Shown: in pieces, positions 39,256 through 59,397 of the stretch
Position numbering within the stretch: position 1 is the stretch's first letter
Layout: each line of letters begins with the position of its first letter
Virus record (IMG/VR): IMGVR_UViG_3300013136_000003
Span: 23,382-87,381 of that record
Source of the DNA: a virus
DNA length: 64,000 nt
Strand: one strand, 5' to 3'
Position numbers and translations under genes: made by a program
Notes under the pieces: generated by a model
Seen by the model: only the letters and a program-made list of their open reading frames with translations
What the model was told of the DNA's origin: nothing
The model's database searches: none

Positions 39256-40137
39256 ATGAAACAACTGAAGATCTCAAGGTTACTGACGGATTCTGAGAAG
39301 ACCGAAACTTTGAACCGTTACTTGAAGGACGTTAAGGAGCTTAGTTTCGCGCTGACCGCGGAAGAAGAAGCTAGCTTGGCGAGAAGGATAAGAGCAGGAG
39401 ACAGAACAGCTCTCAACGAGCTGGTCAACTCCAACCTCCGGTTCGTGATAAGCGTAGCAAACCAGTACAGCGCGTACGCTTCGCTTGAGGACTTGATAAA
39501 CGAGGGCAACCTCGGCCTGATCAAGGCTGCTGAAAGGTTTGACGAATCAAGAGGAGTGAAGTTCATATCCTACGCTGTCTGGTGGGTAAGGGACAGCATC
39601 GTTCGTTACGTGGCTCAAGTCCACCCGATCGTCAGAGTACCGTTCGTAAAGAGCAACGACTCTTTCAAGTACCGAACGGCTGAACGCTTGCTCGAGCAAG
39701 CTTTCGAAAGAAAACCGACCGTGTCAGAGATAGCAGAATCCCTGAGCTTGATCTCAGGAAAGAAGTACTCTGACTCGTACGTTGAAGTACTGGCGGAGAC
39801 GGCAAACCAGGCCAGAGTCTCGATAACCGACGCGTTCGACTTCGAGCTGGAGCTAGATACCGACGTCGAAGGAGCGGTCAGTATTCCAGAACCAGCGGAA
39901 GAGACCAGCCCGCAGGTTACCGTTCGTCGCGAGCTGCTCAACAGCTTGAAGAAGTTGGACGATCGTGAACGTTACATCGTGACAGAGTTCTTCGGCCTAG
40001 CTGGAGAAGCCAAGACCTTGGAACAGATAGGTCAGTACTTGGGAATATCAAGGGAACGAGTTCGCCAGCTGAGAAACGAGACTCTTCTCAAGCTGAGAGA
40101 GACGGTCAGCGAAGAGTTCAGGTTCTTTGAATCCTAA
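39256..40137 (+). CDS. Sigma-70 family factor (RpoD/SigA-like, regions 1.2-4)
   Basis: LNRYLKDV, NLRFVISVA..Y, DLINEGNLGLIKAAERFD..RG.KFISYAVWW.R, TLEQIG..LGISRERVRQ. Confidence 0.95.
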   Translation: MKQLKISRLLTDSEKTETLNRYLKDVKELSFALTAEEEASLARRIRAGDRTALNELVNSNLRFVISVANQYSAYASLEDLINEGNLGLIKAAERFDESRGVKFISYAVWWVRDSIVRYVAQVHPIVRVPFVKSNDSFKYRTAERLLEQAFERKPTVSEIAESLSLISGKKYSDSYVEVLAETANQARVSITDAFDFELELDTDVEGAVSIPEPAEETSPQVTVRRELLNSLKKLDDRERYIVTEFFGLAGEAKTLEQIGQYLGISRERVRQLRNETLLKLRETVSEEFRFFES

Positions 40138-40985
40138 TTTTTTCCTTTCGAGTAATAGTCTTATATTTGCCCTATCAATCAACTATAAAGCTATGATAGA
40201 AAAAGTTCGCGATTTTTTCAGAGAGCGCTACGCTCACGTAAATTTTCAGGCCATCAGCGATGCCACCATCGAGGAATTCATGAGCCGCTCCTACATCAAG
40301 GACCGTGCCTTCGAGAGCCAGATGGACCTCCTCTACGACATGATCCTGGCCAACGACATGGCGGAGGTGGAAGAATGAGCCTCATCGACGAAGCGGGAGC
40401 CAAGTCTCTGATGACCTGGCTCCCGACCCGCGGGATGGACCCGGTGGAAGTGACCATCACGAAGGGCGAGGAAACCCTGACCCTCACGGTCACGAAGGAT
40501 TCCGACCTGGCAATGCTAAAGATACTGTGCGCTCAGAACGGCGCGAAACTTGAAACAATGGAATTAGTGTCAGCTAACTAAAAATGAAAACATGAAATGG
40601 ATCCCGTTCGTCGGCATCTTCCTCGTGAAGTTCCCGATCCCAGGAAAGCAGTGGAACCTCTGGTTCTGGTACCAAACTTCGGTAATAATAGCTAGCCTCT
40701 TGGGTCTCTTGGCCTGGACGGTCTGGCCAGTATTCGTGTAACCTTCCTGTGGCGGGAAGTTTAAACCCAAAAGATATAAACCCTCAAGAATTCAAGGAAG
40801 CGCTCAGCCGGTGCAAGACCGAGCAGGAAATAGACAGCCTTTGTCAAAGGGAAGTTAAAGTCCTGTTTCTCAGCCCGCAAACGAGCGAACTGATGAAAGC
40901 AGTTTACGCTGCAAGGTACGTGATAATTACGAAAAGAATCGCGGCCTGATTTTTTCCTGTCGAGAAGTCGTGGTACTTTTACCTA

Positions 40986-41056
40986 GTTATCTTGCTAAAG
41001 GCAAGCTCTGACGGGCCGAACCTACGGGACCTTGGGAGAGTGTACTCCGCTCTACA
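40986..41056 (+). ncRNA. Small RNA family copy 1
   Basis: Directly behind early promoter, no ORF; GTTATCTTGC-TAAAG-GCAAGCTCTGACGGG...GGGAGAGTGTACTCCG then T-run. Confidence 0.6.
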
Positions 41057-41159
41057 CTTTATTTTTTTAGAGAAAATTTTTCGAAAATTTTTTACCCGGA
41101 TTTTTTCCGCTCGTGCCGGATGATTAATTTTACCCCATAATCAATCAACAACCCGCCAC

Positions 41160-41699
41160 ATGAGACACAATCACGCAGCACCCCGTCCGAACCTCAACCC
41201 CAAGGCCCTTCCCACCCTCGCTCTGGCAGGCCGCGCAGTGTTGACGTTTCGTAATACCGAAGCCGGCACCCACTTCACCGCCCGCATTCGTCAGAAGCGC
41301 GACAAGAAGGACCGCAAGGTCAAGCTGCCAGCTTACAACGTCGAGATCAGCCTCCTTCAGGACGGCGTACAGCGCTACCGCTACACTGGCATGATCTTCA
41401 CCGATGAGCCTCAGATCCGCATCTGGATCGCTCGTGAGCTCAACGAGTCCCGTCCGAACGATGCACGTCTCATCGCAGTGTTCCGCTGGATGATCCGCGC
41501 CATCCAGAATCCTGAGATCCTTCGCGGTCGCGTCGGTCTCTTCCACGAAGGTCGCTGCTGCCACTGCAGCATGCCTCTCACCCATCCTGAATCCGTCTAC
41601 ACCGGCCTCGGCCCAGTCTGCCTCAAGCACATGCAAGCTGACCTCGCTCGTCAGAACGTAACCATCGCTGAGGTCTTCGCTCCGGTCGAGCAGATTTAA
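41160..41699 (+). CDS. DUF6011-like Zn-binding protein
   Basis: HEGRCCHC..PLTHPES...GLGPVC. Confidence 0.75.
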   Translation: MRHNHAAPRPNLNPKALPTLALAGRAVLTFRNTEAGTHFTARIRQKRDKKDRKVKLPAYNVEISLLQDGVQRYRYTGMIFTDEPQIRIWIARELNESRPNDARLIAVFRWMIRAIQNPEILRGRVGLFHEGRCCHCSMPLTHPESVYTGLGPVCLKHMQADLARQNVTIAEVFAPVEQI

Positions 41700-41897
41700 C
41701 CGACCCAGGTCGGTAGGCCGGCTCCGAAGAGGAGTCGGTCCGGCTCGTTCGAGGACGAGGATAGGGTATACTCCGCCCTGCCCATCAGTATCTAAAGTAC
41801 TCCCTAGTAAACTGTTGCAAAATTTTTAGCCCAGATTTTTTCCTTCCAACAGTTCGTGTTATATTAGCTTCATATTAATCAACTAACACTTTTCACC

Positions 41898-42155
41898 ATG
41901 GCATTCAGACACCAACCCATTTCGACCGAAGACCTTCAGGCTCGCCTCCGCAGCGGAGTCGTTAGGTTCGCCTTTGTGAAGCTTGATGGCTCTCTGAGGG
42001 AAGTTCAGGGAACGCTTAACTTGAACCACATCCCTGCGACCAAGCACCCCAACGGGAACGGAAGCCCTTCTCCGAGAGCGGTGCGGTTTTTCGACTACCT
42101 CGTCGGAGAGTGGAGAAGCTTCCGCATAGACAGTCAACTGTTCGTATTAGAATAG
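41898..42155 (+). CDS. WYL_2/Sm-like SH3 beta-barrel protein
   Basis: GVVRF.F.K.DGS.RE..GTLN...FFD....EWRSFR. Confidence 0.8.
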   Translation: MAFRHQPISTEDLQARLRSGVVRFAFVKLDGSLREVQGTLNLNHIPATKHPNGNGSPSPRAVRFFDYLVGEWRSFRIDSQLFVLE

Positions 42156-42226
42156 TCTCAGCCACACACCCGAGCCCTTCAGATTGGCTCGGGTAGGAGG
42201 GATAAATAGAACAAAAGGCCCTCCAC

Positions 42227-42802
42227 ATGTCACACGTAATGTCATTTAATGAGTTCATAACCGAATCGATACAACCCATAAACGAGATGCCAAGACACCA
42301 CAGGTACGGCGGTTACCGCAGCAGGTATAACGGATCAGCAGAGTACTACAACGTCCTTCCTCGCGACGAGATGAGAGCACGTAAGCTGAGCAAGAGACCA
42401 TCCAACTGGAGAGCTAACATTTCCGACGAGGAGGTAGCCATCATCAATGCCAAGAAGATGGCCAAAGCGATTACCGACGAGGGCAAGATGATCGCTCGCA
42501 TGGAAGCGGTGTACAACCAGTGGGGTCCGGGTCCAGTGCTGCAGCCTTTTATCGACCGGATAATGGAAGCCATGCCGAACAGGAAGTACACAGCAGCGTG
42601 GAGGATCGGTACTCAGGACGGAGCGGTCGCAGCAAACCCTGAAGGCCACATGTCCGCAGACGATGACGCAGCTATCGCTCACATACTCGCGGACCTTGGA
42701 GTCCTGCCGGACGAGCACAAGTTCAAGGGTAACAGTGCCGAGCAGATAATCTACCAGGTAGCCTACAACAAGGCCATGGAAGAGGAACTAGCTAGGGCTT
42801 AA
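42227..42802 (+). CDS. Tagged virion-type protein inside early block
   Basis: GGATAAATAG upstream; MSHVMSFNEFITES. Confidence 0.7.
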   Translation: MSHVMSFNEFITESIQPINEMPRHHRYGGYRSRYNGSAEYYNVLPRDEMRARKLSKRPSNWRANISDEEVAIINAKKMAKAITDEGKMIARMEAVYNQWGPGPVLQPFIDRIMEAMPNRKYTAAWRIGTQDGAVAANPEGHMSADDDAAIAHILADLGVLPDEHKFKGNSAEQIIYQVAYNKAMEEELARA

Positions 42803-42824
42803 GTTACTCCCTAGTACCGGTCTG

Positions 42825-42965
42825 ATTTTTTCCTTTCAAAAGTTATTGTTAAATTAGCAATCTCAATACTAGAGATATGAGATCCAACAAGATAATTTTT
42901 TCCTTTCAAAAGTTATTGTTAAATTAGCAATCTCAATACTAGAGATATGAGATCCAACAAGATAA
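42825..42965 (+). repeat. Perfect 70-bp tandem duplication containing early promoter and first codons of HDAC gene
   Basis: ATTTTTTCCTTTCAAAAG...ATGAGATCCAACAAGATA occurs at 42825 and 42895. Confidence 0.95.
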
Positions 42966-44122
42966 AAGTATTTTACAACCCGAAGCAAGTCCTATCAGCG
43001 GACGCGAAAAAGAACTTCAGCAAGAGCCCGCTCAAGCCGAAGCTTCTGCTCGATCATTTAGCTGATAACGGGTTGGCTGACCACTTGACCATGGTCAGTA
43101 ACTTCAGACCGTACAATGCTTACGATTTTCAGATAGCCCACACGGTCGAGTACGTCAACTCTTTCTTCAAGGGCGGTTACTTAGCTTCGACCAACGGCCT
43201 GGCTTGGAGCCAGCAGTTCGCTGACTCTGTTAGGTACACGAACGCCAGCCTGTGGGAAGCTATAAAGAACTCCCTAGTAAACCCTGACGAGGTAAGCTTC
43301 AGCCCGACCAGCGGGTTCCACCACGCTCGTCCGAACAAGGGTTCAGGGTTCTGCACGTTCAGCGGGCAGGTCATAGCGAGCGTCAAGGCTTACCGCAAGT
43401 TCGGAGCGGTTGGCTGCTACATAGACTTGGACGGACACTTCGGCAACAGCCTCGAAGATTCCCGGTACTTCCAGCCTGACCTCAACGAGGCAGTACCTGT
43501 TGGATTCAATTTTAACTCGCGCCTGCAGGGAGAAGCTTACTACAAGGATTTAACCAACTTCGTTTTAAAGAGACTAACTCCTGCCATAATCAACGGCGAG
43601 ATCGATTACGTGGTGTGGTGCCACGGAGCTGACAGCCACGAGTGGGACCAGCTCGGCTACCAGGTAAATACCGAACAGTGGGTACGCTGCTCCAAGTTCT
43701 TCTGGACGTGGGTGAAGGAGATGGACCAGGCTCTGGGCCGCCCGCTCTCCGTAGTAGCTTCCCTATTCGGTGGTTACAGGTCGGACGATTACGATTCGGT
43801 CTTAAGCCTCCACGCTAGCGACTTACGCGAGTGCATGAACTGCTTGCTCGGCTTGGACGTCTACTACGAGACAGACGTTAAGCCTGCTCCGAAGAGAGAC
43901 TACTTCAACACTCACAGAGACTTCTACGTCGGCCGGACCGAGGGGTCAACCATAGACCGTAGTCTCTACCGTCCTTCCACTGATCGCGGGACGAGACTCT
44001 CCGACCAAGCCATGCTCGACATCAGGAGAAAGGAATGGGAAAGAGAACGCGACCGCCAGAACGAGGAGGAGTTCGAGAAGTACTACGCTCTGAGACAGAA
44101 GTTAAACGGCAGGTCAGAGTAG
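42947..44122 (+). CDS. Histone deacetylase (Zn-dependent HDAC/AcuC) family protein
   Basis: AHT.EYV, GFHHA....GSGFC.F, DLDGHFGNS, HGADSH..D.LG, GGY. Confidence 0.9.
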   Translation: MRSNKIKVFYNPKQVLSADAKKNFSKSPLKPKLLLDHLADNGLADHLTMVSNFRPYNAYDFQIAHTVEYVNSFFKGGYLASTNGLAWSQQFADSVRYTNASLWEAIKNSLVNPDEVSFSPTSGFHHARPNKGSGFCTFSGQVIASVKAYRKFGAVGCYIDLDGHFGNSLEDSRYFQPDLNEAVPVGFNFNSRLQGEAYYKDLTNFVLKRLTPAIINGEIDYVVWCHGADSHEWDQLGYQVNTEQWVRCSKFFWTWVKEMDQALGRPLSVVASLFGGYRSDDYDSVLSLHASDLRECMNCLLGLDVYYETDVKPAPKRDYFNTHRDFYVGRTEGSTIDRSLYRPSTDRGTRLSDQAMLDIRRKEWERERDRQNEEEFEKYYALRQKLNGRSE

Positions 44123-44617
44123 ATTTTTTCCTGTCAGAGATTCTTTTTACTTTTACTTTAAATTATTAAAGCAATGAACTTAACAGAAGTCAAAGTCCGC
44201 AAGTCAGAACGCCCGCAGAAAACAAGGATATTCATCTTCGAAAAGGGCGAAGGAATTCTTGAAAACTTAATGAAGCGGCACAGCCGCCCGTACGAAGCGT
44301 ACAAGAAGGAAGTCCTTCCTCTCGTGAAAGCATGGCTCGCCGCCAACCGGCCAGACGTCAACGAACTGGAAATCGGCAGAAGCATAGGCTGGAGCCAGAA
44401 AGCTGGCTGCTCGTGCGGCTGCTCTCCAGGGTTTATCGTCGACTACTTCGGCTGCCGAGACATTTACGTAACCATCTCGAACTGAGGTGGCCATGCCCGC
44501 CCGGCATGGGTATCTCAGGGTCCCCTCTACCGAGGGGATTTTTGTTAAGAGAGAATTGAGCCCGATTTTTTCCTGTCAACCAGTCGAATTATATTAGCAG
44601 CATCAATCAACAAAACT

Positions 44618-45214
44618 ATGAGCGCAGAAACTACGACAAAAGTCACCACCCTTACCGAAGCCAGAGCAGCCATCGCCGGAATACCAGGTCTTCACCAAGG
44701 CGGGTGCGGCATTGCTGCTCTTGCCCTAGCTCGTTGGATAAAGAACAGCAACATGGCCGCTACCACTCTGTTCGTCCTAGGTGACAACAGCGGCTGCTAT
44801 TACAGGACCAACGTTAGCGCGATAATCGATTCGTCGATCGAACCCGACTCGTGCTCGCACATAGGGCTGATAGTATACGACTTCAACAACAACAACCAAC
44901 AGTACATAATCGATGCTCGTGGAATATACGACATGGGTGAGTACCTCTACATCAACATCGTTTCGAAGGAACAGATAATGGTCAGGTCCATAAACCGAGT
45001 CGACCGGTGGAACGATTCTTTCGACCGTCGTAACGTTGCTGAGATAGCTAAGCGCCTAGGCATAGACCTTTCCGACATCGATTGCAGAACTCGCAGCGAG
45101 TTCTGTGAAGCTGCGGCTAAGGAAACTAAGATCGAAGAAACTCAGACGGTCGAAGGCTACCAGTCCCTTCTCTGGGAAATGCTGCAGCCCACGTCCCTGC
45201 TGATGTCAATGTAA
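44618..45214 (+). CDS. Early hypothetical protein
   Basis: GGCGIAALAL...H...IID..G...WN..FDR; follows early promoter. Confidence 0.7.
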   Translation: MSAETTTKVTTLTEARAAIAGIPGLHQGGCGIAALALARWIKNSNMAATTLFVLGDNSGCYYRTNVSAIIDSSIEPDSCSHIGLIVYDFNNNNQQYIIDARGIYDMGEYLYINIVSKEQIMVRSINRVDRWNDSFDRRNVAEIAKRLGIDLSDIDCRTRSEFCEAAAKETKIEETQTVEGYQSLLWEMLQPTSLLMSM

Positions 45215-45778
45215 GTATATTATTAACAACTTAAAATCAACCGACACGAAGAAAATCTTTTCGTTACTGCTCTTGACCTTGATGGTCGCGATCGTTCTCC
45301 CGTCCTGCACAGACAACCAAAGAGCCAAGAGGTTCGGCGGAACCATGGAGTACCAGGTACCGAAGGGCGAGGAGTTCGTCAACGCTACGTGGAAGGACAA
45401 CAACCTGTGGGTCATCACGAAGAACCAAACTACCGGAACGTTTTACATGCATGAGGTCTCTGATTACGGAGTCATGCAGGGGAACGTCGTCATCACGCCA
45501 TGAAGAAAGAGCATGCCATCATCCTTGACCTGATCCGCCAGTACCTAGAGGACAAACCAACCCTAAGGTTTGGGCAAGCCCTCTTCAACATGGGAATCCT
45601 GGACCAGGAAAAGAAACTGGACGAGAGCGGGATCCACCGGCCGCGAGACATTCACGCGGACCAAGATCAACAGATCATAAGCAGAATCAGAGAACAAGCA
45701 AAAAAGAATCCGGGAATTTAACCCGGATTTTTTCGTTTCAGAGAATAGACTTATATTTGCTTATCAAATTTAACTAAC

Positions 45779-46162
45779 ATGCAAGAGCACCAGATCGAAA
45801 CAATGCACAGGGAATTGAAGGAAGCCGCACGCACCGTCCTAGCCAAGTACGGCATGGACCTCATGTCATCCTCTCTTTCCTACAGCCGCAAGCTTGACCG
45901 CAGCGGAGTTGAAGGTTTCCATGTCTAGATCAAAGGTATAACCCAGGTTACCTCTGAGACTGCCAAGACAGCTGACGATGGAATGATCCGCTCAGGTTTT
46001 GCTGGACCCAACACCAAAGCATGGGTTACTGATCGTAACGGTCGTCGCCGCGAGGTGATCATCACCGAAGCTAAGAGGTCGAAGTATGCCTTTTACTTTG
46101 CTGACGACCAACGTAAGAGCCCGATGCTCGGGCACTTCCGTCTGTTCTCCGCTACTCAGTAG
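45779..46162 (+). pseudogene. 127-codon early ORF interrupted by in-frame TAG (45926-45928)
   Basis: Starts right after early promoter; ...GFHV*IKGIT... stays open to 46162. Confidence 0.6.
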
Positions 46163-47816
46163 CGGGGACAGGATTTTTTCCTTTCGAGAAAAGGTCTTAT
46201 ATTAGCTCCATAATCAATCAACAATGGGAAAGAAGTTAAATAAGTTCGCAAAGCAGATGATCGACGCCGGCATGCCGATGAAAGCCGTATCAGAGCTTAC
46301 CGATCTCTACCTTGACCAGAATTTTACTGGCGTCGTGGAGATTAAGATAAAGGAAGACCCATACGTCGAGGGAACGTTCGCCATAAGGATCGTGCAGATG
46401 CAGGAAGTGTACTACCGGCACGAGAACGAGGAAAAGAAGATAGAGTACTTATCCGACCTCGACCTCCTCTGGAACAAAGGCGATTACGGCGAAGTCGAAT
46501 TCAACACCTGGCCGCCTACTGCCGGTCCAAATAACCTCCAATTCTTATAGCCAATCATTCAACCCATAAAAAGACATGAACAAAGTACCTATTGACAAAG
46601 ACGGTCACCGTATCCTTACGAAGGAACAGCGCCGGAGAGTTTACGAAAGAGCTCTCAAAACTTTCAAGAAGCACGTCGAGACAGTGATCGAAGAAAAACG
46701 GGGACAGTGTAACGGAATGTGCGTGCACGTCGACCGTGCAGTCAGTTACCTGGGATACGACAGGTACTGGCCGGTAAAAAGATCGTACAGCCGGAAAGCC
46801 TGGCCGGAATACAAGTCGTTCGAGCCGAAAGCCGGCTGGAAGAAGAACACCAGCTTCTGGCTGACCAGGAACGTCAAAGCCAACGGACACACAAAACGAA
46901 TTGCCATCCTGACCGCCCTAGCCGAGGGCAAGTCAAAAGGCGAGTAGTTGATTGATTCTGAAAGAGATGGGGCTTCTGTGGCGGAGGTCCCATTTTTATT
47001 TTTTCCTTTCAAAGAAAATTGTTACTTTTACTTCATAATCAATCAACCTATGGAAAGAACAGGACTAGCTAAAATCGATTTTAACCGCAAGGTCGAGCAG
47101 ATTGCAAGGCAGGATCGCAATAACCGGATGAGAACCGGCCAATACAAGCCTCTGCCCATGTGTCGTAAGGATGCAAAAGCCAAGGTTGAGGAACTACACT
47201 TCATCACAGCCCACAGGAAGTACATGGGCATGAGAGAGTACGATTACCTCGTTAACCGTGCAGTTGAGTGCGGCGAGGGAACCATCTTCTACAAGGGTCG
47301 AACCATAAGCATAATGTAACATGAACGAGATAAATTCAAAAGGATTTTCGATCAAGCTGTGCGGAGACAGCAGCGTTGGCATATTCGATGCTTACTACAA
47401 GCTGGAAGGCGACTTCTGCTTCGAGTCAATGGAAGATCTCCAGGAATTCAAGGAATCCCTTCACAAGACCTTCGAACTTTTGACCGACATGGGAATGGAG
47501 ATTGACACGTTCGAGGAGTTGGAAAAGTCCGACCAGTACGAAAGAGAAGTCGACGAAAGACTCAACGATTGGGAGAAGATCGAAGCTAGTGACGACCTTA
47601 AATCCAACTTTCGTTCTTGGGAAATCGACCATAACGACGAACAATCAGCTGACGCTCTGTTCTACACGATGACTGCACGTCATCCTCAGTGCAAGTCGAG
47701 CTGGCTGCAGAAACTGTGTGATAACTGGGTAGGTTATGAAAGAGACCCAAACGAAGATGTCGACTGATTTTTTCCTGTCGAGAATAATTAGTACATTTAC
47801 CAAATAACTTACTGAA

Positions 47817-48158
47817 ATGAAAACATTTGTATTACTTCTCATCGCTGGTTTGCTGCTCGTTACCGGCTGCCAAAAAGACGACACAGTGGTCGTTCGGAAC
47901 GACCACACAGCTCAAGTAACGGTCAAAGCTTATGGAGACAGCTCATTCATCTTTGGCTGGAGAACTTCCGACATGGAAGACGGATACTGGAACAAGTGGT
48001 TGGAAGAAGACAGTTTAACTCTAGTCGTTGCTCTTAATGTGATGGACACCCTGGAAGTAGGTAGTTACGGCAATCGAGTGGTAGCTTACTTCGACGACGT
48101 TCTCTACGTGGACACAGCTTTCTCCGAGTACACTTACCTAAGGTTACCGATGCAATGA
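47817..48158 (+). CDS. Early lipoprotein
   Basis: MKTFVLLLIAGLLLVTGC lipobox. Confidence 0.75.
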   Translation: MKTFVLLLIAGLLLVTGCQKDDTVVVRNDHTAQVTVKAYGDSSFIFGWRTSDMEDGYWNKWLEEDSLTLVVALNVMDTLEVGSYGNRVVAYFDDVLYVDTAFSEYTYLRLPMQ

Positions 48159-49395
48159 AATTGATAGCTTTACTATTAACTGTGCTAGCTCTGGTTAGTT
48201 GTGAAGCGATAAAGCCAGTGGTTCAAGAAGTCGAAGAGTGGGACACAGTCTACCAAGCCAAACAAGGGTGCGTGTGGACTCAAGTAAACGACAGCACGTG
48301 AGTAAAAGATACCATTCCTTGATTTTTTCCTTTCGCCGAATTGTTCTATATTAACTCTATCAAATTCAACTAATACAAAAAACAGATCATGATCGAACTG
48401 AACATCAACCAAATTTTCGTGACGGATGACATCACACAGCTGCCGTTGTCCGTGCAGAAAAAGGTTCTCGAAGAGTTGGTGATCGCTCACATCCGTAAGG
48501 AAAGCAGGCCGGACGACCTGGACGTTCCAATCGACATCTTCGACGGACACCTCGTTCGCATTCCGCTTCCTCAGGAACCCAACGCAAAGTGGACCTTCCG
48601 CAACTGGGAATGGGCCAAAGGTTTTTGCGAAGCTCACCCAGGCGCCGTTCCTTGCCATGACGAGGACCTCGACCACTCGAGCTATACTTTCATCGACTGC
48701 AGCCAGCTGCGAGTAAGGCCGATGGAATAAGCTGACATCTTCTCAACGGAAGTGGAGCCCAAAAGGCTCCACTTTTGTTTTACCTGGATTTTTTCGTCTC
48801 GTTAAAACTTGTTAATTTTACAGCATAATCATTAACAACATGGCAAAAGAACTAATTGTAGCCCACTTCGCAGCCGATTACAAGGACACTGAGGAACTGA
48901 TCGACGGATTCAAGGAAGCTCTCACGCGTTTTGGAATCAAAGTGTACGACGATCCGAACTGCGAAGGAACTGACACATACGGTTTTCTTCTCTCGAACGA
49001 GGAACTGACCGAGGACGAAGTAAAAACTTTAACTAACGTATCATGAAGCAGCCGCTCGACGTTACCCACCCAGCCATTCACTGGAACGCAGCTGACCAGA
49101 GTTTTTCTTGCGAGCTGTCAAGCATAAGCTTGAACCACATTGACCTTCAGTGCCACCGTCACGAACCGATCGAGCTCGTGAACCCGAATACTGGTGCAAA
49201 GGTTACAATAACCTGGGTCAAGGACGACAAGGACGGAAGCGGCGAGGACACTTACGGGTTCAATTACATCGGTTACAATAAGAGTACAAACCGTCACTTT
49301 ACATTTTTGTTCATAAATGATTAACACTTTTGAACCGAATTTTTTCCTGTCAGAGATTCAATTTATATTTGCTTCATACATTCTAAACAACCACA

Positions 49396-50115
49396 ATGGC
49401 ACAGAGATTTGAAACATCGGAAACCCTTCCACCGTACTTCAAGGAGATCTCGCTCGTCGAGGACCACATGACTAAGGAGGAAGAGCAAGCCTTAGCTCGT
49501 AGGATTCAAAGAGGGGACGAAGCTGCTCTCAACAAGCTCGTGAGCGCGAACCTTAAGTACGTCGTGACCATGGCCAACAAGTTCATCGGCATGGGAGTTT
49601 CGGTCGACGACCTGATTCAGGAAGGAAACCTCGGCCTCATCGAAGCTGCCAAGAGGTACCGCCCGACAGCTGACACGAAGTTCCTCACCTATGCCAAGTT
49701 CTGGATCAGAAAGAGCCTCAACCTCGCTCTGTGCAACCACGGAAGGACCGTTCGATTACCAGTCAACCAGGAATACGACATCTACAAGCAGAAGATGAGG
49801 GGCGAGACCCCGAACCTTGCCAACGTTCGCATCGACATTAAGGTCGGCGAGGACAAGGACGTCAGCCTTGGAGACCTCGTTCTTCGCGACGAGTTCAACG
49901 ATCCGTTCGCAAACCAGGACACTGATCGCATCATGAAAGCTCTTCTCGAAATCCTGAAACCTGCCGAGAAAAGGATAGTTGAACTCTTCTACGGCTTGAA
50001 CGGCGGTGACGGTATGTCGACCAAGGAAGTAGCTGAGCAGGTCGGAAAGACCGCAGCTGAAGTCAACCGCGCTCTGAAAGTCGCGAGAGCGAAGATGAAA
50101 CGAATCGTCAAGTAA
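49396..50115 (+). CDS. Second sigma-70 family factor
   Basis: YFKEI, NLKYVV..A, DLIQEGNLGLIEAAKRY, KF.TYA.FWIR, RTVRLP; region 4 STKEVAEQVG. Confidence 0.93.
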   Translation: MAQRFETSETLPPYFKEISLVEDHMTKEEEQALARRIQRGDEAALNKLVSANLKYVVTMANKFIGMGVSVDDLIQEGNLGLIEAAKRYRPTADTKFLTYAKFWIRKSLNLALCNHGRTVRLPVNQEYDIYKQKMRGETPNLANVRIDIKVGEDKDVSLGDLVLRDEFNDPFANQDTDRIMKALLEILKPAEKRIVELFYGLNGGDGMSTKEVAEQVGKTAAEVNRALKVARAKMKRIVK

Positions 50116-50480
50116 TTTTTTCCTTTCTTAAAATAGTTCTACTTTTACCACATGGAAACTCCAAAACTGAGAACATCAACGGAAGATACTGCTCGCTGCT
50201 GGGCAAAGACGGGAACGGACATTCTATTCTCGGAATCAGACCCCTTCGACTGCAAAGTCTCGAAGGAAAAGCTTGAGCGGAACTTGTACAACCGAATACT
50301 GATCAACCTCGTAGACCTGGAAACCCCAGAAGTAAGCGAGGTTCAGCTCAAGGAATGCATCGAACTATCAAAGAATTAAAGGTATACATTCTGATCACAA
50401 AAGAGTTGCTAGGATCTTACCTTTCAACTCTTTTTTAGTATATTATTAGTAGATAGACCAAAAAAGACTGAGCGCACCAG

Positions 50481-50750
50481 ATGGAAACTAACAAACCTAT
50501 AGACCCGAATAAAAGAACGTATCACGAACTTCTCATGGAGCTGTTTAACCTCAAGGAGAAGGATTACGATAAGTTCATGCACAAGCTTTACGAAGCTTTG
50601 ACAGGCGAAGCTCGAGACGCGCTTCAAAGTCCTGACCCAGTCTCAGAAAAGAAGAAAGCTCTGTGGACCATGATCCAATACTTCCAGAACAAGGAAGAGT
50701 ACGAGAAGTGCGCTGAGCTGAAAAAAATGGCTGATTCATTACAAGATTAA
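50481..50750 (+). CDS. Hypothetical protein with YF...EEYEKCA.L (UVR-like) motif
   Basis: MIQYFQNKEEYEKCAELKK. Confidence 0.7.
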   Translation: METNKPIDPNKRTYHELLMELFNLKEKDYDKFMHKLYEALTGEARDALQSPDPVSEKKKALWTMIQYFQNKEEYEKCAELKKMADSLQD

Positions 50751-51234
50751 ACGATATGACAACTCTTTGGACACAATCATGCACGGACCAGTTTTTGGCT
50801 GCAGCAGTAGTAGTGATAGCAGTGGTGATAACGATCGCTGTTGCTTCCTGGATAATCAAAAGGATAAGAAAATAGGATGCCTAGCCAGCTAAGAAAGAGC
50901 AAGAAAGTCTGGATCATAACCGTTCGAACGGTGGACAAGGAAACGCCGACCGGAGTAGCCACCACGTTCAGGTCAGCTTACAAGCTAGCTCTTCTTGACG
51001 GAAAGATAAGCAAGCCCTGCTTGGAAGAGAGACTCGCGAGGATCCTGTACAGGAAGACTGGATTCTGCCTGATCTGGAATACCGACGAGTTCGAATCCTT
51101 GGAAGAAGCAATGTACTCGCCGGTCGGTCGGTTGGTTAAGATACAAGAGGTACCAGTAAGACGTACCTAGCAGTTGGTTGATTGATGCACGAGAGGAACC
51201 CAAACGGTTCCTCTCGCTGTATAAATAGAAGTAT

Positions 51235-51933
51235 ATGTCAGTCGTACTAAACCTTCAGATACATGGGCAAGGAGCAATGGTAACGTTGCAAGTGTACAGC
51301 CCGTCCAGCTACTACCGCGGAGCTCTATTCTCCAGCAAGGATACGAAGCTAGACCTGTTCTTCGAAACGATAGGCAAGGTGGAAGTTGACTTCCCGTCGG
51401 TCGAATATCGATCTACTTTCTTAACTGACCTGCGAGCCGGGTTAGACGGAGCGGCTGATTTTACCCTATCCAACCTAGGGCCGATCGCAACGACTACTAC
51501 CACGACATCCGGCCCGACTACCACGACCACTACCGATTCTCCGACAACAACGACGACAACCGCTGGAGCTACAACGACCACGACGACAGAATCTCCTACT
51601 ACAACGACCACGACTGAGGCAGCCACGACTACCACTACGACCGCGGCTACTACCACTACGACGACTCTCGTGCCGGAAGTCTACTCGCTATCCAATAGTT
51701 CTTACGGAACCACCGGAGCGGCTTGCGCGATAGACACGCTGAGCCAGACAGTTTACGTTGCTAACGGTATAAACCTTAACAGCTTGAACGGCAACACAAT
51801 CTTTACTGACTCTAGCCTGACTACCAAGATGGTAGGAGATGGTAACTACTACACCATATCAGACGGTGTCAACAAGCACGCGATCATGATCGATTCTGAA
51901 GGACTGATGTCCAACAACTTTACTTGCACGTAA
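51235..51933 (+). CDS. Late Thr-rich (mucin-like linker) protein
   Basis: GTATAAATAG upstream; repeated TTTTTT blocks. Confidence 0.75.
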   Translation: MSVVLNLQIHGQGAMVTLQVYSPSSYYRGALFSSKDTKLDLFFETIGKVEVDFPSVEYRSTFLTDLRAGLDGAADFTLSNLGPIATTTTTTSGPTTTTTTDSPTTTTTTAGATTTTTTESPTTTTTTEAATTTTTTAATTTTTTLVPEVYSLSNSSYGTTGAACAIDTLSQTVYVANGINLNSLNGNTIFTDSSLTTKMVGDGNYYTISDGVNKHAIMIDSEGLMSNNFTCT

Positions 51934-51969
51934 TTTTTTCCTTTCGCGGATTCTTCTTACTTTTACATC

Positions 51970-52037
51970 GTTATCTTGCTGAAGACAAGCTCTAACGGGT
52001 TCGCAGAACAAGCGCAGAGGGTATACTCCGACCTACA
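51970..52037 (+). ncRNA. Small RNA family copy 2
   Basis: Behind early promoter; GTTATCTTGCTGAAGACAAGCTCTAACGGG...AGAGGGTATACTCCG. Confidence 0.6.
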
Positions 52038-54074
52038 CCGAACTTTGGCAGAAAAAATATTTCGCTGAGATTTTTTCCTTTCGCCAGCTTTAGTTAATTT
52101 TACAGCATCAATCAACAAATACTGAAACTATGAGAAAGATCGTTATCTTAAGGTTCGGCCCGCCCATTCCGATTCCGGAAATAAACGCGGCCCTGCGTCC
52201 TCACTTCGCTAACGACCAGTCCGCGAAAGCGTTCCCAGTACCAGGTGGAGTCATGTCGGTCTTCAACACCGATTCAACCCCCGAGCAGATCGCCGAGTCG
52301 ATCAAGGCACTCAGCTTGGACATTCCGTTCTTCGTGTTCCCTTACGATAGTAAGGCCAGCTCCCTACCTCAGCCTCTTGAGGACGCCATCAACAGCGAAT
52401 CGGTACCGTCAAACGGTGCTCAGCCAACTACTCAGACACTCACAGTGGACGAGATTCTGGAGAAGATATCCGATCACGGAATCGAATCGCTCACCGAGGA
52501 CGAACGTGCAACTCTTAACGCTACCAGGTCGGAGGGTTAATCCCTCCGGCCCTAGGCCGAAATACCGAAGACCATGACAAAGCAAGAGAAGGCAAGAAAA
52601 TCTTTTGATTATGCCTGCAAGCAGGCCAGCAAGTGCCGTCACGAGAAGTACCACGTGTCCTGTCACAGCTGCCCTGAGGAAGAGAAGTGCGACATACAGC
52701 AGAGGATCAACAAAGCTCGTGAGGGCATGCACAGCTAGTACTCCCTAGTACCGACTATTTTTTCCTTTCAACAATTAGTATTATATTAGCAACAAATTCA
52801 ATAACATGGCAACAGTAATCGTACCCTTCAGGTTGGGTACCAAGTTTAATTCGCACAAGGTCCACAACCCGGAATGCGACATCATCGAAGGTCACATCGA
52901 CGAGGACACCACACTAATTTACGGAATCTACGTCAAGGGACCGAAAAAGGGTCAGGAATTCTGCGAGTACTACAGCGGCGAAAACTACTGCGTCCGCTCA
53001 AAGAAAAAGAGCTATTCCCGCGCGTGGAGCCCGGTCAACATACCGGTTAAGTACTTCACCCTGTGGCAGTTACTCCGTAGCACGTACGAAACATTACCTA
53101 AATAAATCGCATGAAAGAGATCGTGAGAATCTACGTCAAAGACCCGAAGACCGGGCGAGAGAGAGGAGAGATGGATCCTGAAAAGATCGTCGCTGCTCTT
53201 TCCAAACCAACAGAAGACATTGAGCTTGACTACGACGACGGCTCCGGACGGAACGTGAGGATGGGAACGAGCATGGAACTTGTCGGAGAGAAGGTCAAAG
53301 TCGGAGACATGGAGATCGAGATCCCAGCCCACTAAGTACTCCCTAGTAAACAGACAATGATATGCACACTCTAGCTGAGATTAAGACCGAGGAGGTCAAA
53401 AAGAAGATCGTCGAACGGTGCGGGCCGGAACCTGACAAGCAGGGTCTGGTCTGCCCGTACTGCGGAGCCCACGAGGTTTACGCGGACAGGAAGGAACCGA
53501 ACAATGTCGACAAATGGTTCTGGATGATACGTGCGTTCAGAGTCGACAATTCATCAGAATGCAATAACTGCGGAAGATGGTTCGACCTGTAACAAAGGAC
53601 TCCCTAGTACAGGAGATAGCTAGCCTGAAAGAAAGGTTAGCGACCATCGACGAACGGTGGAAGGGTGCTGTAGTTACCAGCATCTGGGCAGGAAGCACGT
53701 ACAACCATGCTAGGTACTTTCGCGGATTGGAAAGGCAGTCGCTTTATTCCAAGCTGAAAAGACGAGAGCAGAAACTAAGAAAAATACTGAGAGATGAAAG
53801 ACAACCAATTGTACGAGAGAACTGATCCAAGGTTCAAGCACCTCATAGGAAAGAAGGTCAAGTTCGTTTACAAGGGCGAGGTGTGCATCGGCACGCTAGA
53901 CTTCGCAGGAATAAACGACATGCTGCACAGCCAGTTCCAAGTTACCGCTAGCAGGACCCCTCACTGGCCGGTTGACCCAAGTACGATAGAGGAATACGTG
54001 GACGACAGAGTCCGTGTGGGAAAATAAAACTACACGGATTTTTTCGTTTCGTGCAAATGTGGTATATTAGCTTT

Positions 54075-54145
54075 GTTAACTTGCTAAAAGCAAGCTCCAA
54101 CGGGCCGAGCCACATAGGACTTGGGAGAGTATACTCCGTCTTGCT
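54075..54145 (+). ncRNA. Small RNA family copy 3
   Basis: Behind early promoter; GTTAACTTGCTAAAAGCAAGCTCCAACGGG...GGGAGAGTATACTCCGT then T-run. Confidence 0.6.
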
Positions 54146-54341
54146 TTTATTTTTATGTAGCAGTCTTCAGCCGCAAAAGTTTAGTTTGCAGCAGAGGTGC
54201 CGCTGATGTTAGTCTGTAGTACAATATTAGTAACGACAGCGACTCACAAAAATACGCAAATATTTTAGTCCGAGATTTTTTCCTGTCAGTCTTTAGTGTT
54301 ACTTTTACTACATCAAATTCAACTAACACAAACTTCAACGT

Positions 54342-55502
54342 ATGCAGCAGAACGAAATTTCAAGAATGGGGAGAAAGGAAATCCTCGTCCGGCAGTTCTT
54401 CACTGAACACCACGGCGGCGCAATTCCGATCGACCGCACGGTTCAACAGCTCTACTCCCAGTTCATGGCCAACACCGAGAACGCGGACGTCAGTTACGGG
54501 CTGTTCAACGGGGTCGTCAAGAAGTTACGCCGCGGGTTCAATGCAATAGCTCCAACAGGTAGGAACCAAACTCCCCTAGGTGAAGGTATCGTCGAATCGG
54601 ACGAACAGGACGTGGTCGAACCAGCCAACGTAATCGAGATCGGAAGCATGGCATTCCCAAACTTCCAACTCTACCCGACCGGAGGACTGATCGACAAGTT
54701 ACTGTCCGATCACACCGAGGATGGCGGACTCTACTCTGGAACTGCGAACATCGTCGTCGGAGAGTCCGGCGTCGGTAAGTCGACAGTGATGCTTCAGATT
54801 CTCGCTAAGATCAAGAGAGAGAAACCTGACGCTAAGATTCTCTACATCTCTTCCGAGATGACTCGCAATGACCTGTTTTTCTTCTACGCTAAGATGCCGA
54901 TCATCGGCACCGTTCCTACCCTGCTCCTCATGGACTACATCATGGGTCGGTTCGACATCGTGCTGAAAAACACCATCAACAGCAATGAGTACGACATCAT
55001 CCTCCTCGATTCTTACCAGGACACCATCGTGAAGATGGCAGACGTCCTTGGTTGGAAGGCAACCCGTGCAGCAACGTGGCTGACCAACATGCTCATCGAA
55101 GCTGCCGATAAGAACGGCAAAGCGATCTTCGCTATTCAGCACCTTACCAAAGGCGGACAGTACGTCGGCTCTACTTACCTCAAGCACGCTACAACAGCGA
55201 TGATGGAGATGAGGTTCGACGAAGCTGGCCGCAGGTACGTGGAATTCTCAAAGAACCGCCGCGGCGGGTCTCACATCAACAAGAGACTGTACTACTCCCT
55301 AGTAGACGGTGAACTCGTCTGGGACGAGGAAGCATGGAACCAGGAAGTCGAAGCAGCCGCGCTCGCAAACGGAGAGAGCTCCCGTCGTTCTGAGCTCGAA
55401 CACAAGTTCAACGATCTGTTCCTGTCGGTCGGTAAGAAAGGAACGGACGGAGAGGCAGAAGAAGTGACGGTGGAGGAAACCGGCGAAGACCAAGAAAATT
55501 AG
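54342..55502 (+). CDS. RadA/Sms-like (RecA-fold) ATPase
   Basis: GESGVGKST, LYISSEM, IILLDSYQ, H.TKGG.YVGST.LKH, KNRRG. Confidence 0.85.
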   Translation: MQQNEISRMGRKEILVRQFFTEHHGGAIPIDRTVQQLYSQFMANTENADVSYGLFNGVVKKLRRGFNAIAPTGRNQTPLGEGIVESDEQDVVEPANVIEIGSMAFPNFQLYPTGGLIDKLLSDHTEDGGLYSGTANIVVGESGVGKSTVMLQILAKIKREKPDAKILYISSEMTRNDLFFFYAKMPIIGTVPTLLLMDYIMGRFDIVLKNTINSNEYDIILLDSYQDTIVKMADVLGWKATRAATWLTNMLIEAADKNGKAIFAIQHLTKGGQYVGSTYLKHATTAMMEMRFDEAGRRYVEFSKNRRGGSHINKRLYYSLVDGELVWDEEAWNQEVEAAALANGESSRRSELEHKFNDLFLSVGKKGTDGEAEEVTVEETGEDQEN

Positions 55503-55529
55503 TAATCAACCAACTTAAAAATTAAGCGC

Positions 55530-56357: not shown

Positions 56358-56467
56358 GCATACGTTGAATCACAGGGTGGGACGCTGCAGTCCCACCCTT
56401 ACTTTAGTTAGGGCAGACTTTACTCCCTAGTACAGCAGGATAAATAATCAAAACAATCTAACTTAAC

Positions 56468-57286: not shown

Positions 57287-57476
57287 TCTACTCCCTAGTA
57301 CGGTAAGATTAACCTTCCGCGCCCGCGCGTCATGATAACGCGCGGGCGCGGTTGTTTTTACTGAGAGCCCATGCCCTCCCGGCATGGGTATTTTTTGTGA
57401 CTCCAGGCTCGAGGGGTTTTCGGGACCAGCCACAAAGGCTGTTTTCGGTTTGGATAAATAACAAAAACGTTTCTCA

Positions 57477-58809: not shown

Positions 58810-58841
58810 TAAGGCTACTAGCTAAAAGATAGAACAAGACC

Positions 58842-59249: not shown

Positions 59250-59397
59250 CTAGCAGGGGTGGGACTCCCTAGTACGGGTACCGGGCCGGCTAACCGGCCA
59301 GATTTCTAAGTTCTACCTGCACTCCGTAGTACAGCTACCCAAAAAGCCTGCAGGGGCCGGGAAAAAGATACCTGCAATCTCTCTAACTAATTGATTA

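What the first reader, a model, noticed from the sequence alone, without database searches (positions are those of the whole stretch)
40986..54145. Three-copy family of ~70-75-nt early small RNAs with a 5' hairpin and predicted pseudoknot
Seen: at 40986, 51970 and 54075 a dedicated early promoter is followed not by an ORF but by GTTA(T/A)CTTGC-loop-(G/A)CAAG-CTC(T/C)-(G/A)ACGGG-[variable 20-25 nt]-(G/A)GAG..GT(A/G)TACTCCG; the 3' part recurs at ~41762 (AGGGTATACTCCG). CTCY can pair with RGAG and CGGG with the downstream CTCCG in crossed (a-b-a'-b') order, with conserved flanks around a variable middle. Known: phages use small RNAs as anti-defence decoys (pseudo-ToxI pseudoknots, CRISPR-repeat mimics). 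Inference: an undescribed early RNA effector family (antitoxin mimic, sponge or guide-like RNA).
Basis: partly seen in the sequence, partly recalled or inferred. Interest (0 to 1): 0.8.

Follow-up and report, generated by a model that had tools for sequence, protein, structure and literature searches.

The report
Phage small RNA with invariant hairpin
The three repeats are genes for a short non-coding RNA that many large phages of Bacteroidota bacteria carry, including one phage that can be grown in the laboratory; the family is in no RNA catalogue searched, and what it binds is unknown.

Summary
The 30-nt 5' pattern occurs exactly three times in the window against 0 expected. Each copy starts 3 nt after one of the phage's 26 + 3 regular promoters, and no ORF follows.

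The reading is partly right. These are small-RNA genes, but the anatomy differs from the proposal.
- **Variable middle:** it is a hairpin (P2) with strong covariation, not a guide.
- **Pseudoknot:** the CUCY strand is missing in distant members, so it gets no support.
- **Conserved module:** it is the 3' hairpin UAKACUCCGACCURC. In other lineages a U tract follows it.
- **Distribution:** 49 stretches on about 42 IMG/VR contigs, mostly jumbo phages, with 1-4 copies per record.
- **Cultured member:** Tenacibaculum phage Larrie has two copies.

Several alternatives were tested and not supported.
- No Rfam match.
- No host copy or CRISPR array carrying the motif.
- No reading frame stays open across members.

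Best guess (0.42): a trans-acting RNA whose invariant 3' module binds a conserved partner, more likely a protein.

Earlier scan notes on other DNA describe multi-copy small RNAs of Bacteroidota phages with a constant loop. They are probably the same or a sister family, but I could not verify this.

The parts
40950..40982 (+). Promoter of copy 1: TTTTTTCC (40950-40957), 16-nt spacer, -7-like box TACTTTTAC (40974-40982)
   Evidence: It is one of 26 + 3 copies of the same promoter. The early timing and the start site are inferred.
40986..41068 (+). RNA copy 1 (type 1): P1 40991-41005, junction CUCUGACGGG, P2 41016-41035, GAGAG, 3' box UGUACUCCGCUCUACA 41041-41056, U tract to 41068
   Evidence: terminator-like hit at 41037-41053 followed by a T run. 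Orthologues are in L009 and L019.
41744..41782 (+). Fourth, promoter-less copy of the 3' half: hairpin CUCGU/ACGAG (41744-41759), GAUAGGG, box UAUACUCCGCCCUGCC (41767-41782). It lies in the 3' untranslated region of the gene at 41160-41699.
   Evidence: R1, E 0.013; R2, E 0.0046. Promoter-less copies also occur in L025, L059, L077 and L080.
51934..51966 (+). Promoter of copy 2
51970..52037 (+). RNA copy 2 (type 2): P1 51975-51989, CUCUAACGGG, P2 UUCGC/GCGCA 52000-52016 with a conserved U.C mismatch, GAGGG, box UAUACUCCGACCUACA 52022-52037. The 3' end is not clear.
   Evidence: (R1 68.5 bits)
54039..54071 (+). Promoter of copy 3 (TTTTTTCG variant, box TATATTAGC)
54075..54161 (+). RNA copy 3 (type 1): P1 54080-54094, CUCCAACGGG, P2 CCGAG/CUUGG 54105-54124 with a G.U pair, GAGAG, box UAUACUCCGUCUUGCU 54130-54145, U-rich tail
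41160..41699 (+). Neighbour gene A, 179 aa with a C-terminal DUF6011 motif. It recurs next to the RNA in the jumbo clade.
   Evidence: Pfam E 3.1e-9. Its BLAST cluster has 11 rows from the 48 candidate sites, 8 downstream and 3 upstream of an element.
41898..42155 (+). Neighbour gene B, 85 aa, WYL_2 (Sm-like SH3 barrel). It lies directly downstream of an element at 9 of the 48 candidate sites.
   Evidence: Pfam PF10902 E 3.9e-19; clustering. Not found above the cut-off in 10 other records that carry the RNA.

Best explanation
Each unit is a stand-alone gene for a non-coding RNA of roughly 80-100 nt, made from its own promoter of the dense array that I take to be the early one.

The RNA has a modular build:
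- an optional 5' hairpin P1 of free sequence;
- a G-rich junction (R-ACGGG-A);
- a second hairpin P2 of free sequence but kept pairing;
- a purine linker (GRRGG);
- a nearly invariant 3' hairpin, whose stem GGUA/UACC closes the loop U-A/G-ACUCCGACC.

In most lineages outside the jumbo clade a U tract follows, so the 3' hairpin also ends the transcript.

I think the RNA acts in trans. The invariant 3' hairpin together with the two conserved junctions forms the surface that a conserved partner recognises. That partner is more likely a protein than an RNA, and could belong to host or phage. P1 and P2 would be scaffolds. The 1-4 copies per genome would raise the dose right after infection, as a decoy, sponge or cofactor.

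Shown: the gene architecture, the family, the P2 pairing, the absence of coding, and the absence from the host genomes searched. Inferred: transcription, timing, action in trans, and the kind of partner.
For: **Architecture.** A promoter is followed by the element without an ORF in the window. In nine diverse members the promoter has a clear -7 box, and a U run follows the element. After that comes either a new promoter for the next gene or no same-strand gene. In cultured phage Larrie both copies lie on the strand opposite to the neighbouring CDS.

**Family size.** The 17-mer of the box finds 49 stretches on about 42 IMG/VR contigs (my count). That gives 45 distinct members, later 48, of which I judged 2 to be chance hits in coding DNA.

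**P2 pairing.**
- In 11 type-2 sequences, pair 8-16 is CG 7, UA 2, AU 1, GC 1.
- On the 52 distinct rows aligned to model R2, all 6 P2 pairs show double changes and 87% of cells are paired. None of 500 shuffles reaches this, and slid controls give 36-47%.
- G.U pairs (CCGAG/CUUGG) work only on the + strand RNA.

**P3.** Its stem and loop barely vary while P1 and P2 change freely. That pattern fits sequence-specific recognition better than a plain terminator or a seed alone.

**Copy number.** It is low and specific: 2, 2, 1, 3 and up to 4 per record.

**Phage-only in what was searched.**
- Of 57 hits in genome contigs, about 5 are phage contigs and the rest are single coding-sequence chance hits.
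- 1 of 151 Bacteroidota genomes matched R2, and that match was false on inspection.

**No obvious RNA target.** The complement of the loop is not enriched in the window or in a complete 271-kb relative.
Against: - No transcript has been seen. The only RNA data were contigs of about 90%-identical relatives in sludge metatranscriptomes. They cannot show a small RNA, its ends or its strand.
- Single-sequence folds are no better than shuffles: z -0.41, 0.17 and -0.95. My own hairpin-adjacency statistic did not beat shuffles either: 2 of 48 at 0.05 or below.
- The alignment used was fitted to the structure by the model, which leans towards that structure.
- Several copies have no promoter of their own and sit in 3' untranslated regions or after a terminator (window 41744-41782, L025, L059, L077, L080). 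This fits a cis signal as well.
- Only 11 of 48 have a strong T run after the box. In the window's clade the 3' end is mostly unclear.
- No partner was identified. The only recurrent RNA-binding-fold neighbour (WYL_2) is confined to one clade.
Confidence: 0.42

Rival explanations
1. Base-pairing regulator. The exposed C-rich loop (ACUCCGAC) of the 3' hairpin pairs with G-rich, Shine-Dalgarno-like sites (GGAG) of host or phage mRNAs and blocks their translation. C-rich loops of Gram-positive small RNAs work this way (recalled: RNAIII, RsaE/RoxS).
For: - The loop is invariant across very different phages.
- It contains CUCC, which is complementary to GGAG.
- The RNA's own linker GGAGG can mask the loop through the alternative hairpin GGAG:CUCC, which the MFE chose for L083, L093, L104 and L113.
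- Earlier scan notes e1-5863663 and e1-6045870 report phage RNAs with rpsU-like ribosome-binding sites in similar phages. I used these as a lead only.
Against: - The stem of P3 is as invariant as its loop, and a seed model does not need that.
- Complements of the loop are not enriched in the window or in the complete relative.
- The phage's own leaders are A/C-rich without GGAG.
- Host targets could not be searched because the host is unknown.
Confidence: 0.2
2. Cis-acting signal in nascent early transcripts. A hairpin plus a conserved linear box would recruit a factor to RNA polymerase (nut/put-like antitermination). Alternatively it would switch between a terminator (P3 plus U tract) and an anti-terminator (GGAG:CUCC).
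For: - It sits right after promoters.
- Some copies lie after an ORF or in a 3' untranslated region without their own promoter. As recalled, nutR likewise lies behind cro.
- Two mutually exclusive hairpins share CUCC.
- Copy 3 lies just upstream of the last array promoter (54276); beyond that promoter the array stops.
Against: - In diverse members and in Larrie the next gene has its own promoter, or lies on the other strand.
- Downstream genes are not a constant family outside one clade.
- In the window every neighbouring gene has its own promoter.
Confidence: 0.15
3. Anti-defence mimic of a host RNA: a CRISPR-repeat mimic, or a mimic of a type III antitoxin RNA such as ToxI.
For: - Expression from the dense promoter array, which I infer to be early.
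- Several copies per genome.
- Phage-only distribution.
- P1 of the window copies has the outline of a repeat hairpin (GUU-NN-stem-loop-stem-CU...). I recalled a resemblance to type I-F repeats but did not test it by alignment.
Against: - No locus among the 57 genome-contig hits has more than one box.
- The P1-like repeat with up to 3 mismatches gives 24 scattered single hits in 23 of 401 Bacteroidota genomes. The reversed control pattern gives about 35 (my count from the table).
- Model R2 finds no true copy in 151 Bacteroidota genomes.
- P1 is not conserved in sequence and is absent from several members.
- The units are not tandem repeats; they lie 2-11 kb apart.
Confidence: 0.08
4. DNA-level element: an operator or protein-binding site, or an origin where a promoter-driven transcript primes replication. 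One copy lies close upstream of the DnaB/RecA-like ATPase gene throughout the clade.
For: - A copy lies 0.2-1.7 kb upstream of the ATPase gene in the window and in L013, L025, L028, L030, L032, L035, L037, L038 and L041.
- AT-rich DNA follows copies 1 and 3.
- The related ACTCCCTAGTA boxes also occur inside ORFs.
Against: - P2 keeps pairing through G.U and double changes, which DNA recognition does not explain.
- The motif is asymmetric, and the TATA centre is TAGA in many members.
- GC skew of the complete relative gives no origin signal there.
- Members in other lineages are not next to that ATPase.
Confidence: 0.08
5. A tiny protein gene. In one frame the three window copies read through as ...GxxxxxxRVYS.L...
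For: - The frame is open in the three window copies (ORFs 40992-41123 and 54051-54206).
- Types 1 and 2 differ by 3 nt.
- The three differences between copy 1 and its orthologue are third-position changes.
Against: - In-frame TAA/TAG occur in L013, L018, L024 and L032.
- No frame is open in more than 26 of 46 members.
- There is no ATG, and L030 has no start codon of any kind.
Confidence: 0.01

Closest known systems
Protein-titrating or protein-bound small RNAs (CsrB/RsmZ type, 6S RNA; recalled)
   Same: A stand-alone, highly expressed small RNA whose conserved structured module, rather than a variable seed, is the functional part. Several gene copies are present.
   Different: There is no repeated GGA motif and no open-promoter mimic. 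The partner is unknown. The RNA is encoded only by phages. No Rfam match.
Phage RNA decoys: RNA anti-CRISPRs (Racr / solitary repeat units) and pseudo-ToxI (recalled from the literature; not read here)
   Same: A small phage RNA with its own promoter, apparently made early, in a few copies.
   Different: No host repeat or antitoxin with this sequence was found. The units are not tandem repeats. The conserved part is a terminator-like hairpin.
C-rich-loop regulatory RNAs (RsaE/RoxS, RNAIII hairpins; recalled) and Bacteroides small RNAs GibS/FopS, which earlier scan notes say are in Rfam
   Same: A promoter, then hairpins, then a terminator, with a C-rich exposed loop that could meet G-rich ribosome-binding sites.
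   Different: No Rfam family at all passed the threshold in any search. Bacteroidota mRNAs mostly lack Shine-Dalgarno sites (recalled). The stem of the hairpin is invariant too.
Lambda nut sites / HK022 put RNAs (recalled)
   Same: A hairpin of variable sequence next to a conserved linear box, placed just after promoters of the presumed early array or after a first ORF.
   Different: Here the element is usually followed by a U tract and then by a separate promoter for the next gene. It is often on its own strand.
Multi-copy small RNAs of Bacteroidota phages noted earlier in this scan (e1-5389445, e1-5969249, e1-5365138, e1-5942085)
   Same: Individually promoted small RNA genes in lake jumbo phages of Bacteroidota, with a variable 5' hairpin, a constant 3' module and a constant 9-12-letter loop. 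They are also present in cultured phages.
   Different: I could not see their sequences, and sequence look-ups returned nothing. Identity with this family is therefore likely but untested.

Membership tests
Any Rfam 15 family | Match to a covariance model at the gathering score, or at least a low E-value | tested here: not met
   - 0 matches at gathering score in the whole window.
- At E up to 10 in 40900-54300, none of the 5 weak hits overlaps a copy.
- At E up to 1 in 11 loci of diverse members, none of the 4 weak hits overlaps the element.
   - CUCY is absent in L024, L030, L032 and type 3.
- Only one-sided C-to-U changes occur in close relatives.
- ACGGG variants have no matching change in the invariant CUCCG.

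Pairing of the GGG run with CUCC is not excluded.
RNA anti-CRISPR / solitary repeat unit | Close likeness to the repeat of a host CRISPR array | tested here: not met
   - No multi-copy locus appears among the 57 genome-contig hits of the box.
- The P1-like pattern gives 24 single hits in 23 of 401 Bacteroidota genomes, against about 35 for the reversed control.

Only a sample of genomes was searched, and the host is unknown.
Type III antitoxin RNA / pseudo-ToxI | Tandem array of short repeats cut by a cognate toxin, and likeness to a host antitoxin | tested here: not met
   The copies are single and 0.7 to 11 kb apart. No host copy was found in 151 genomes with R2. No tandem-repeat search was run.
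Intrinsic (Rho-independent) terminator | Hairpin directly followed by a U tract | tested here: inconclusive
   - P3 (AGGUA/UACCU or AAGGUAG/CUGCCUU) is followed by UUAUAUUUUUU in L096, L103, L113, L117 and L118 (L121 has a shorter U run), and by U-rich tracts in Larrie.
- Only 11 of 48 members have at least 9 T in the 16 nt after the box.
- The scan tool flagged copy 1 only.
Lambda nut-like or put-like antitermination element | Lies within the transcription unit of downstream genes that depend on read-through | tested here: not met
   The next genes have their own promoters or lie on the other strand. Function itself cannot be tested here.
Small protein gene | One frame open, with a start codon, in all members | tested here: not met
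   The frames are open in 18, 16 and 26 of 46 members. In-frame stops occur in four lineages.
Earlier-noted multi-copy small RNA of Bacteroidota phages (this scan) | The same constant loop or block | not testable with these tools
   The notes show no sequences. Look-ups by sequence were blank.

The most novel reading that the evidence does not exclude
The invariant module is a mimic of ribosome RNA. Its purine linker (GGAGG) and its loop (CUCC) together imitate a Shine-Dalgarno / anti-Shine-Dalgarno pair.

Within minutes of infection the RNA would capture a component that guards the hidden 16S tail of Bacteroidota ribosomes, or the tail itself, and so reprogramme host translation.

A second bold reading concerns the window's clade only. 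There the RNA could be the client of the phage's own Sm-like WYL_2 protein, whose gene lies next to it. That would give a phylum without Hfq (recalled) a phage-borne RNA-chaperone pair.
Probability: 0.1. Interest if true: 0.85.

Novelty: new variant of a known kind. Interest (0 to 1): 0.6.

Why it matters
Phage-encoded small RNAs are little explored, and almost none is known for phages of Bacteroidota, a phylum whose RNA biology differs from the model bacteria: no Hfq and few Shine-Dalgarno sites (recalled).

Here one RNA module stays letter-for-letter the same across phages whose proteins are only about 50-60% identical. It appears to be made from the first promoters to fire, and it is present in 1-4 copies. 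Such constancy points to a conserved and probably important partner.

The family also occurs in a cultured phage (Tenacibaculum phage Larrie), so that partner can be sought at the bench by deletion, pull-down and small-RNA sequencing.

If the RNA turns out to be an ordinary regulator of phage genes, the find is a useful new RNA family. If it targets the ribosome or a defence system, it would be a new mode of host takeover.

Tried and rejected
- **RNA-seq.** One search for runs and one laying. Only Logan contigs of about 90%-identical relatives in two sludge metatranscriptomes, one 'probably DNA' run and one DNA run were available. They cover most of the promoter-array (presumed early) region, but they cannot show small RNAs, ends or strand. 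Parts without cover mean nothing.
- **Thermodynamic folds.** Folds of single copies are not better than shuffles.
- **My hairpin-next-to-the-box statistic.** It was too permissive and did not beat shuffles, so I dropped it as evidence.
- **RNAalifold on the 12 close copies.** It proposed GUUA:URAC and GAG:CUC pairs, but there was too little variation to judge.
- **sigma-70-like reading.** TTCGCA-16-TATACT was rejected. The TTCG part is absent in type 1, L041 and L028/L054 (GGTCC), and the spacing changes.
- **Micro-ORF.** Rejected.
- **Operator palindrome.** Rejected because of the GTAGAC variants.
- **GC skew of a complete relative.** No origin signal.
- **Complement of the loop in phage genomes.** No enrichment.
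- **WYL_2 as a universal partner.** Not found above the cut-off in 10 other records.
- **Host copy.** Searches found none.
- **Cultured relatives of the phage itself.** The ATPase has no close match in INPHARED, and the DNA has no match.
- **Papers.**
  - PMC12619734 ('moraphages'): abstract, outline and four passages read. It describes jumbo phages of Bacteroidota with a sigma factor and T4-like structural genes and does not mention non-coding RNA. Whether this window belongs to that lineage was not tested.
  - Three literature searches were seen as listings only. None named such an RNA.
  - Supplements are closed. The candidate lists of PMC8040213 and PMC5737381 could hold a gut member such as L137, and I could not check them.
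- **Resemblance to rRNA.** A likeness of type-3 P2 to a conserved rRNA stretch was recalled only and never tested. It carries no weight.

Full report
**1. What is in the window.**

The window is bases 23382-87381 of an 87,381-bp IMG/VR viral contig that CheckV rates about 32% complete. Its source is lake-water metagenomes.

Between 33 and 54.3 kb lies a dense array of one promoter type: TTTTTTCC, 16 nt, then a box TAYWTTWRC. There are 26 copies on the + strand and 3 on the - strand. The usual sequel is an A/C-rich leader (AUCAAUCAAC...) and an ATG without a Shine-Dalgarno site.

The next promoter follows 50-140 nt later. The 30-nt 5' pattern occurs exactly three times and never in shuffles. 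The short 3' motif occurs a fourth time at 41766. ARAGORN finds no tRNA, and Rfam finds nothing at gathering score or at E up to 10.

**2. Close relatives.**

Pattern scans found the same units in three other IMG/VR contigs and seven metagenome stretches, giving 12 distinct sequences. They fall into two types:
- type 1: copies 1 and 3;
- type 2: copy 2.

In this set the 5' hairpin P1 changes from CUUG/CAAG to CCGG/CCGG. The middle segment is also a hairpin:
- type 1: CCGAG/CUUGG, CCGAU/AUUGG;
- type 2: UUCGC/GCGCA, UUCGU/ACGCA.

The G.U pair in type 1 pairs only in the + strand RNA. RNAalifold had too little variation to choose among the remaining pairings.

**3. Distant relatives change the picture.**

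The ATPase gene next to copy 3 (54342-55502; AAA_25/DnaB-like) has 562 relatives, on contigs of up to 288 kb. Thirty-two viral loci around such genes showed the following:
- The TTTTTTCC promoter is special to the window's sub-clade.
- The 3' half of the element persists: a hairpin, then GAGGG or GGAGG, then UAKACUCCGACCURC.
- P1 and the CUCY strand are often missing (L024, L032, type 3), or P1 has another sequence (L030).

A scan of IMG/VR with the 17-mer of the box gave 49 stretches on about 42 contigs (my count). That yielded 45 distinct members, later 48 candidates. My scripts skipped sites within 100 nt of a locus end, and I set aside L092 and L110 as chance hits in coding DNA.

Nine of the members (L086, L093, L096, L103, L113, L115, L117, L118, L121) stand behind promoters with a -7 box of the TAnnTTTG kind. 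I recall this as the Bacteroidota consensus. Most are followed by UUAUAUUUUUU. Then comes a fresh promoter for the next gene, or no same-strand gene at all. That is the layout of an independent small-RNA gene.

**4. Structure.**

A first model from 11 gap-free type-2 sequences (A5, R1) found 45 hits in 41 sources. It found none around ATPase genes of 56% identity or less (L042-L053).

On A5, pair 8-16 of P2 is CG 7, UA 2, AU 1, GC 1, and the U.C mismatch at pair 2 is constant.

A second model from nine type-3-like sequences (A8, R2) aligned 52 distinct rows. Counts on that alignment:

| Measure | P2 (6 pairs) |
|---|---|
| Pairs with changes on both sides | 6 of 6 |
| Cells paired | 87% |
| Shuffles reaching the observed measures (whole structure) | 0 of 500 |
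| Slid controls, whole structure (observed 85.9%) | 36-47% paired |

The caveat is that the alignment was fitted to the model. Single-sequence statistics are not significant.

The three inner pairs of the 3' hairpin P3 are kept (GC 47; UG 25 / UA 24; AU 47 plus one GU). They hardly covary, because stem and loop are nearly invariant.

An alternative hairpin GGAG:CUCC competes with P3 for the same CUCC.

The junction 5' of P2 is mostly R-ACGGG-A. Its variants have no compensating change in CUCCG.

**5. What it is not.**

- **Not coding.** In-frame stops occur in four lineages, and no frame is open in more than 26 of 46 members.
- **Not an operator palindrome.** Many members read GUAGAC, and the motif is asymmetric.
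- **Not a general terminator.** Complete or large records hold only 2, 2, 1, 3 and up to 4 copies.
- **Not a copy of a host RNA, in what I searched.**
  - Of 57 hits of the box in one-genome-per-species contigs, about five are phage contigs binned into MAGs. One is a 254-kb contig in a Bacteroidetes MAG. The rest are single hits inside ORFs, such as a conserved CR(Y/F)xPTCS stretch that I take to be yidD.
  - R2 gave one hit in 151 Bacteroidota genomes, and it was false on inspection.
  - A P1-like repeat gave no arrays in 401 Bacteroidota genomes and was no commoner than its reversed control.

**6. Context.**

In the jumbo clade the element recurs upstream of two small genes:
- a 179-aa protein with a DUF6011 motif (41160-41699);
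- an 85-aa WYL_2 protein with an Sm-like SH3-barrel fold (41898-42155).

One copy always lies 0.2-1.7 kb upstream of the ATPase gene. WYL_2 was not found above the cut-off in ten other records with the RNA, one of them a complete 288-kb genome. I therefore read this as clade synteny and a lead, not a rule.

The host is inferred to be a member of Bacteroidota from:
- the promoter type and the SD-less leaders;
- the MAG bin;
- the cultured member (below);
- the 'moraphage' paper on jumbo phages of Bacteroidota with a sigma factor (PMC12619734; abstract and passages). Membership of that lineage was not tested.

**7. A cultured member.**

A 76-nt query from L118 hit Tenacibaculum phage Larrie (ON950054.1, 77.5 kb) weakly, at E = 2. 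Inspection shows two good copies at 18815 and 19447. Each stands behind a TTTG / TAnnTTTG promoter and on the strand opposite to the neighbouring CDS.

The second copy has the full layout of the window's type 2:
- a 5' hairpin (AACGU/ACGUU);
- GGG;
- P2 UUCGCAU/AUGCGCA with the same U.C mismatch;
- GAGGG;
- the box (with A at position 9);
- U6.

**8. How it most likely works.**

Two hairpins are free in sequence while a third hairpin and two junctions are frozen in both stem and loop. Copy number is low, placement appears to be early, and the RNA is phage-only. To me this argues for a trans-acting RNA whose 3' module is read sequence-specifically by a conserved partner, more likely a protein (0.42).

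| Reading | Probability |
|---|---|
| Trans-acting RNA with a conserved partner | 0.42 |
| C-rich-loop base-pairing regulator | 0.20 |
| Cis signal on early transcripts, helped by the promoter-less copies and the P3 / anti-P3 alternative | 0.15 |
| Mimic of a host defence RNA | 0.08 |
| DNA-level site or origin | 0.08 |
| Small ORF | 0.01 |

None of the steps beyond the gene architecture and P2 is shown.

**9. Relation to earlier notes of this scan.**

Notes on this genome already listed the promoter array and the ACTCC boxes, and I re-checked both. Notes on other genomes describe multi-copy, individually promoted small RNAs of Bacteroidota phages with a variable 5' hairpin, a constant 3' module and a constant 9-12-letter loop, also present in cultured phages. 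This is very probably the same or a sister family, so the scan has met it before. I could not confirm it, because no sequences are shown and look-ups by sequence were blank.

**10. Verdict.**

It is a new variant of a known kind, the phage small RNA gene. Interest is 0.6: a widespread, frozen RNA module with an unknown partner in a poorly studied phage-host world, and it is testable in culture.

Noticed in passing
window 41798-59849, + strand (e.g. 41798, 42805, 52739, 53337, 55293, 56421, 57289, 59781, 59838): Boxes TACTCC(C/G)TAGTA give 23 matches with up to 2 mismatches against 5.4 expected, and every perfect copy is on the + strand. Many sit right after stop codons and some inside ORFs. 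In a complete 271-kb relative the same box occurs only at 255-263 kb, forward strand. It shares ACUCC with the RNA's loop; whether the two are related is open.
   Followed up: partly
window 33072-54310: The promoter array has 26 copies on the + strand and 3 on the - strand, with invariant spacing and a TTTTTTCC upstream element. Leaders are A/C-rich without a Shine-Dalgarno site. Relatives with ATPase identity of 64% or less use other upstream elements, and a near-palindrome GTTAATAAC recurs ahead of their promoters.
   Followed up: partly
window 42826-42965: A perfect 70-bp tandem duplication doubles the promoter ahead of the gene at 42947-44122. Contigs of relatives in all four runs laid skip 74 nt here (42820 to 42895). 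The duplication is therefore special to this genome or an assembly effect.
   Followed up: partly
window 54214-54247: Between copy 3 and the last array promoter lies CTGTAGTACAATATTAG. This motif is conserved upstream of the ATPase gene in distant relatives as ACTGTAGTAtAAT. Contigs of two RNA libraries end here with adapter letters at 54243 and 54247, a weak hint of a second start site.
   Followed up: no
window 41898-42155: A stand-alone 85-aa WYL_2 (Sm-like SH3 barrel) protein under an array promoter (presumed early), Pfam E 3.9e-19. Among the 14 control genomes the family also appears in Bacteroides thetaiotaomicron.
   Followed up: partly
L022 18020-18060, - strand (close relative, beyond the ATPase gene): Model R1 hit of 24.7 bits, E 3.7e-5, beginning AGGTTCGGGTTCC and lacking the box. 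It was not seen in the window and not examined.
   Followed up: no
window 39256-40137: A phage sigma factor (phrog_351, E 1.3e-48) lies within the promoter array.
   Followed up: no
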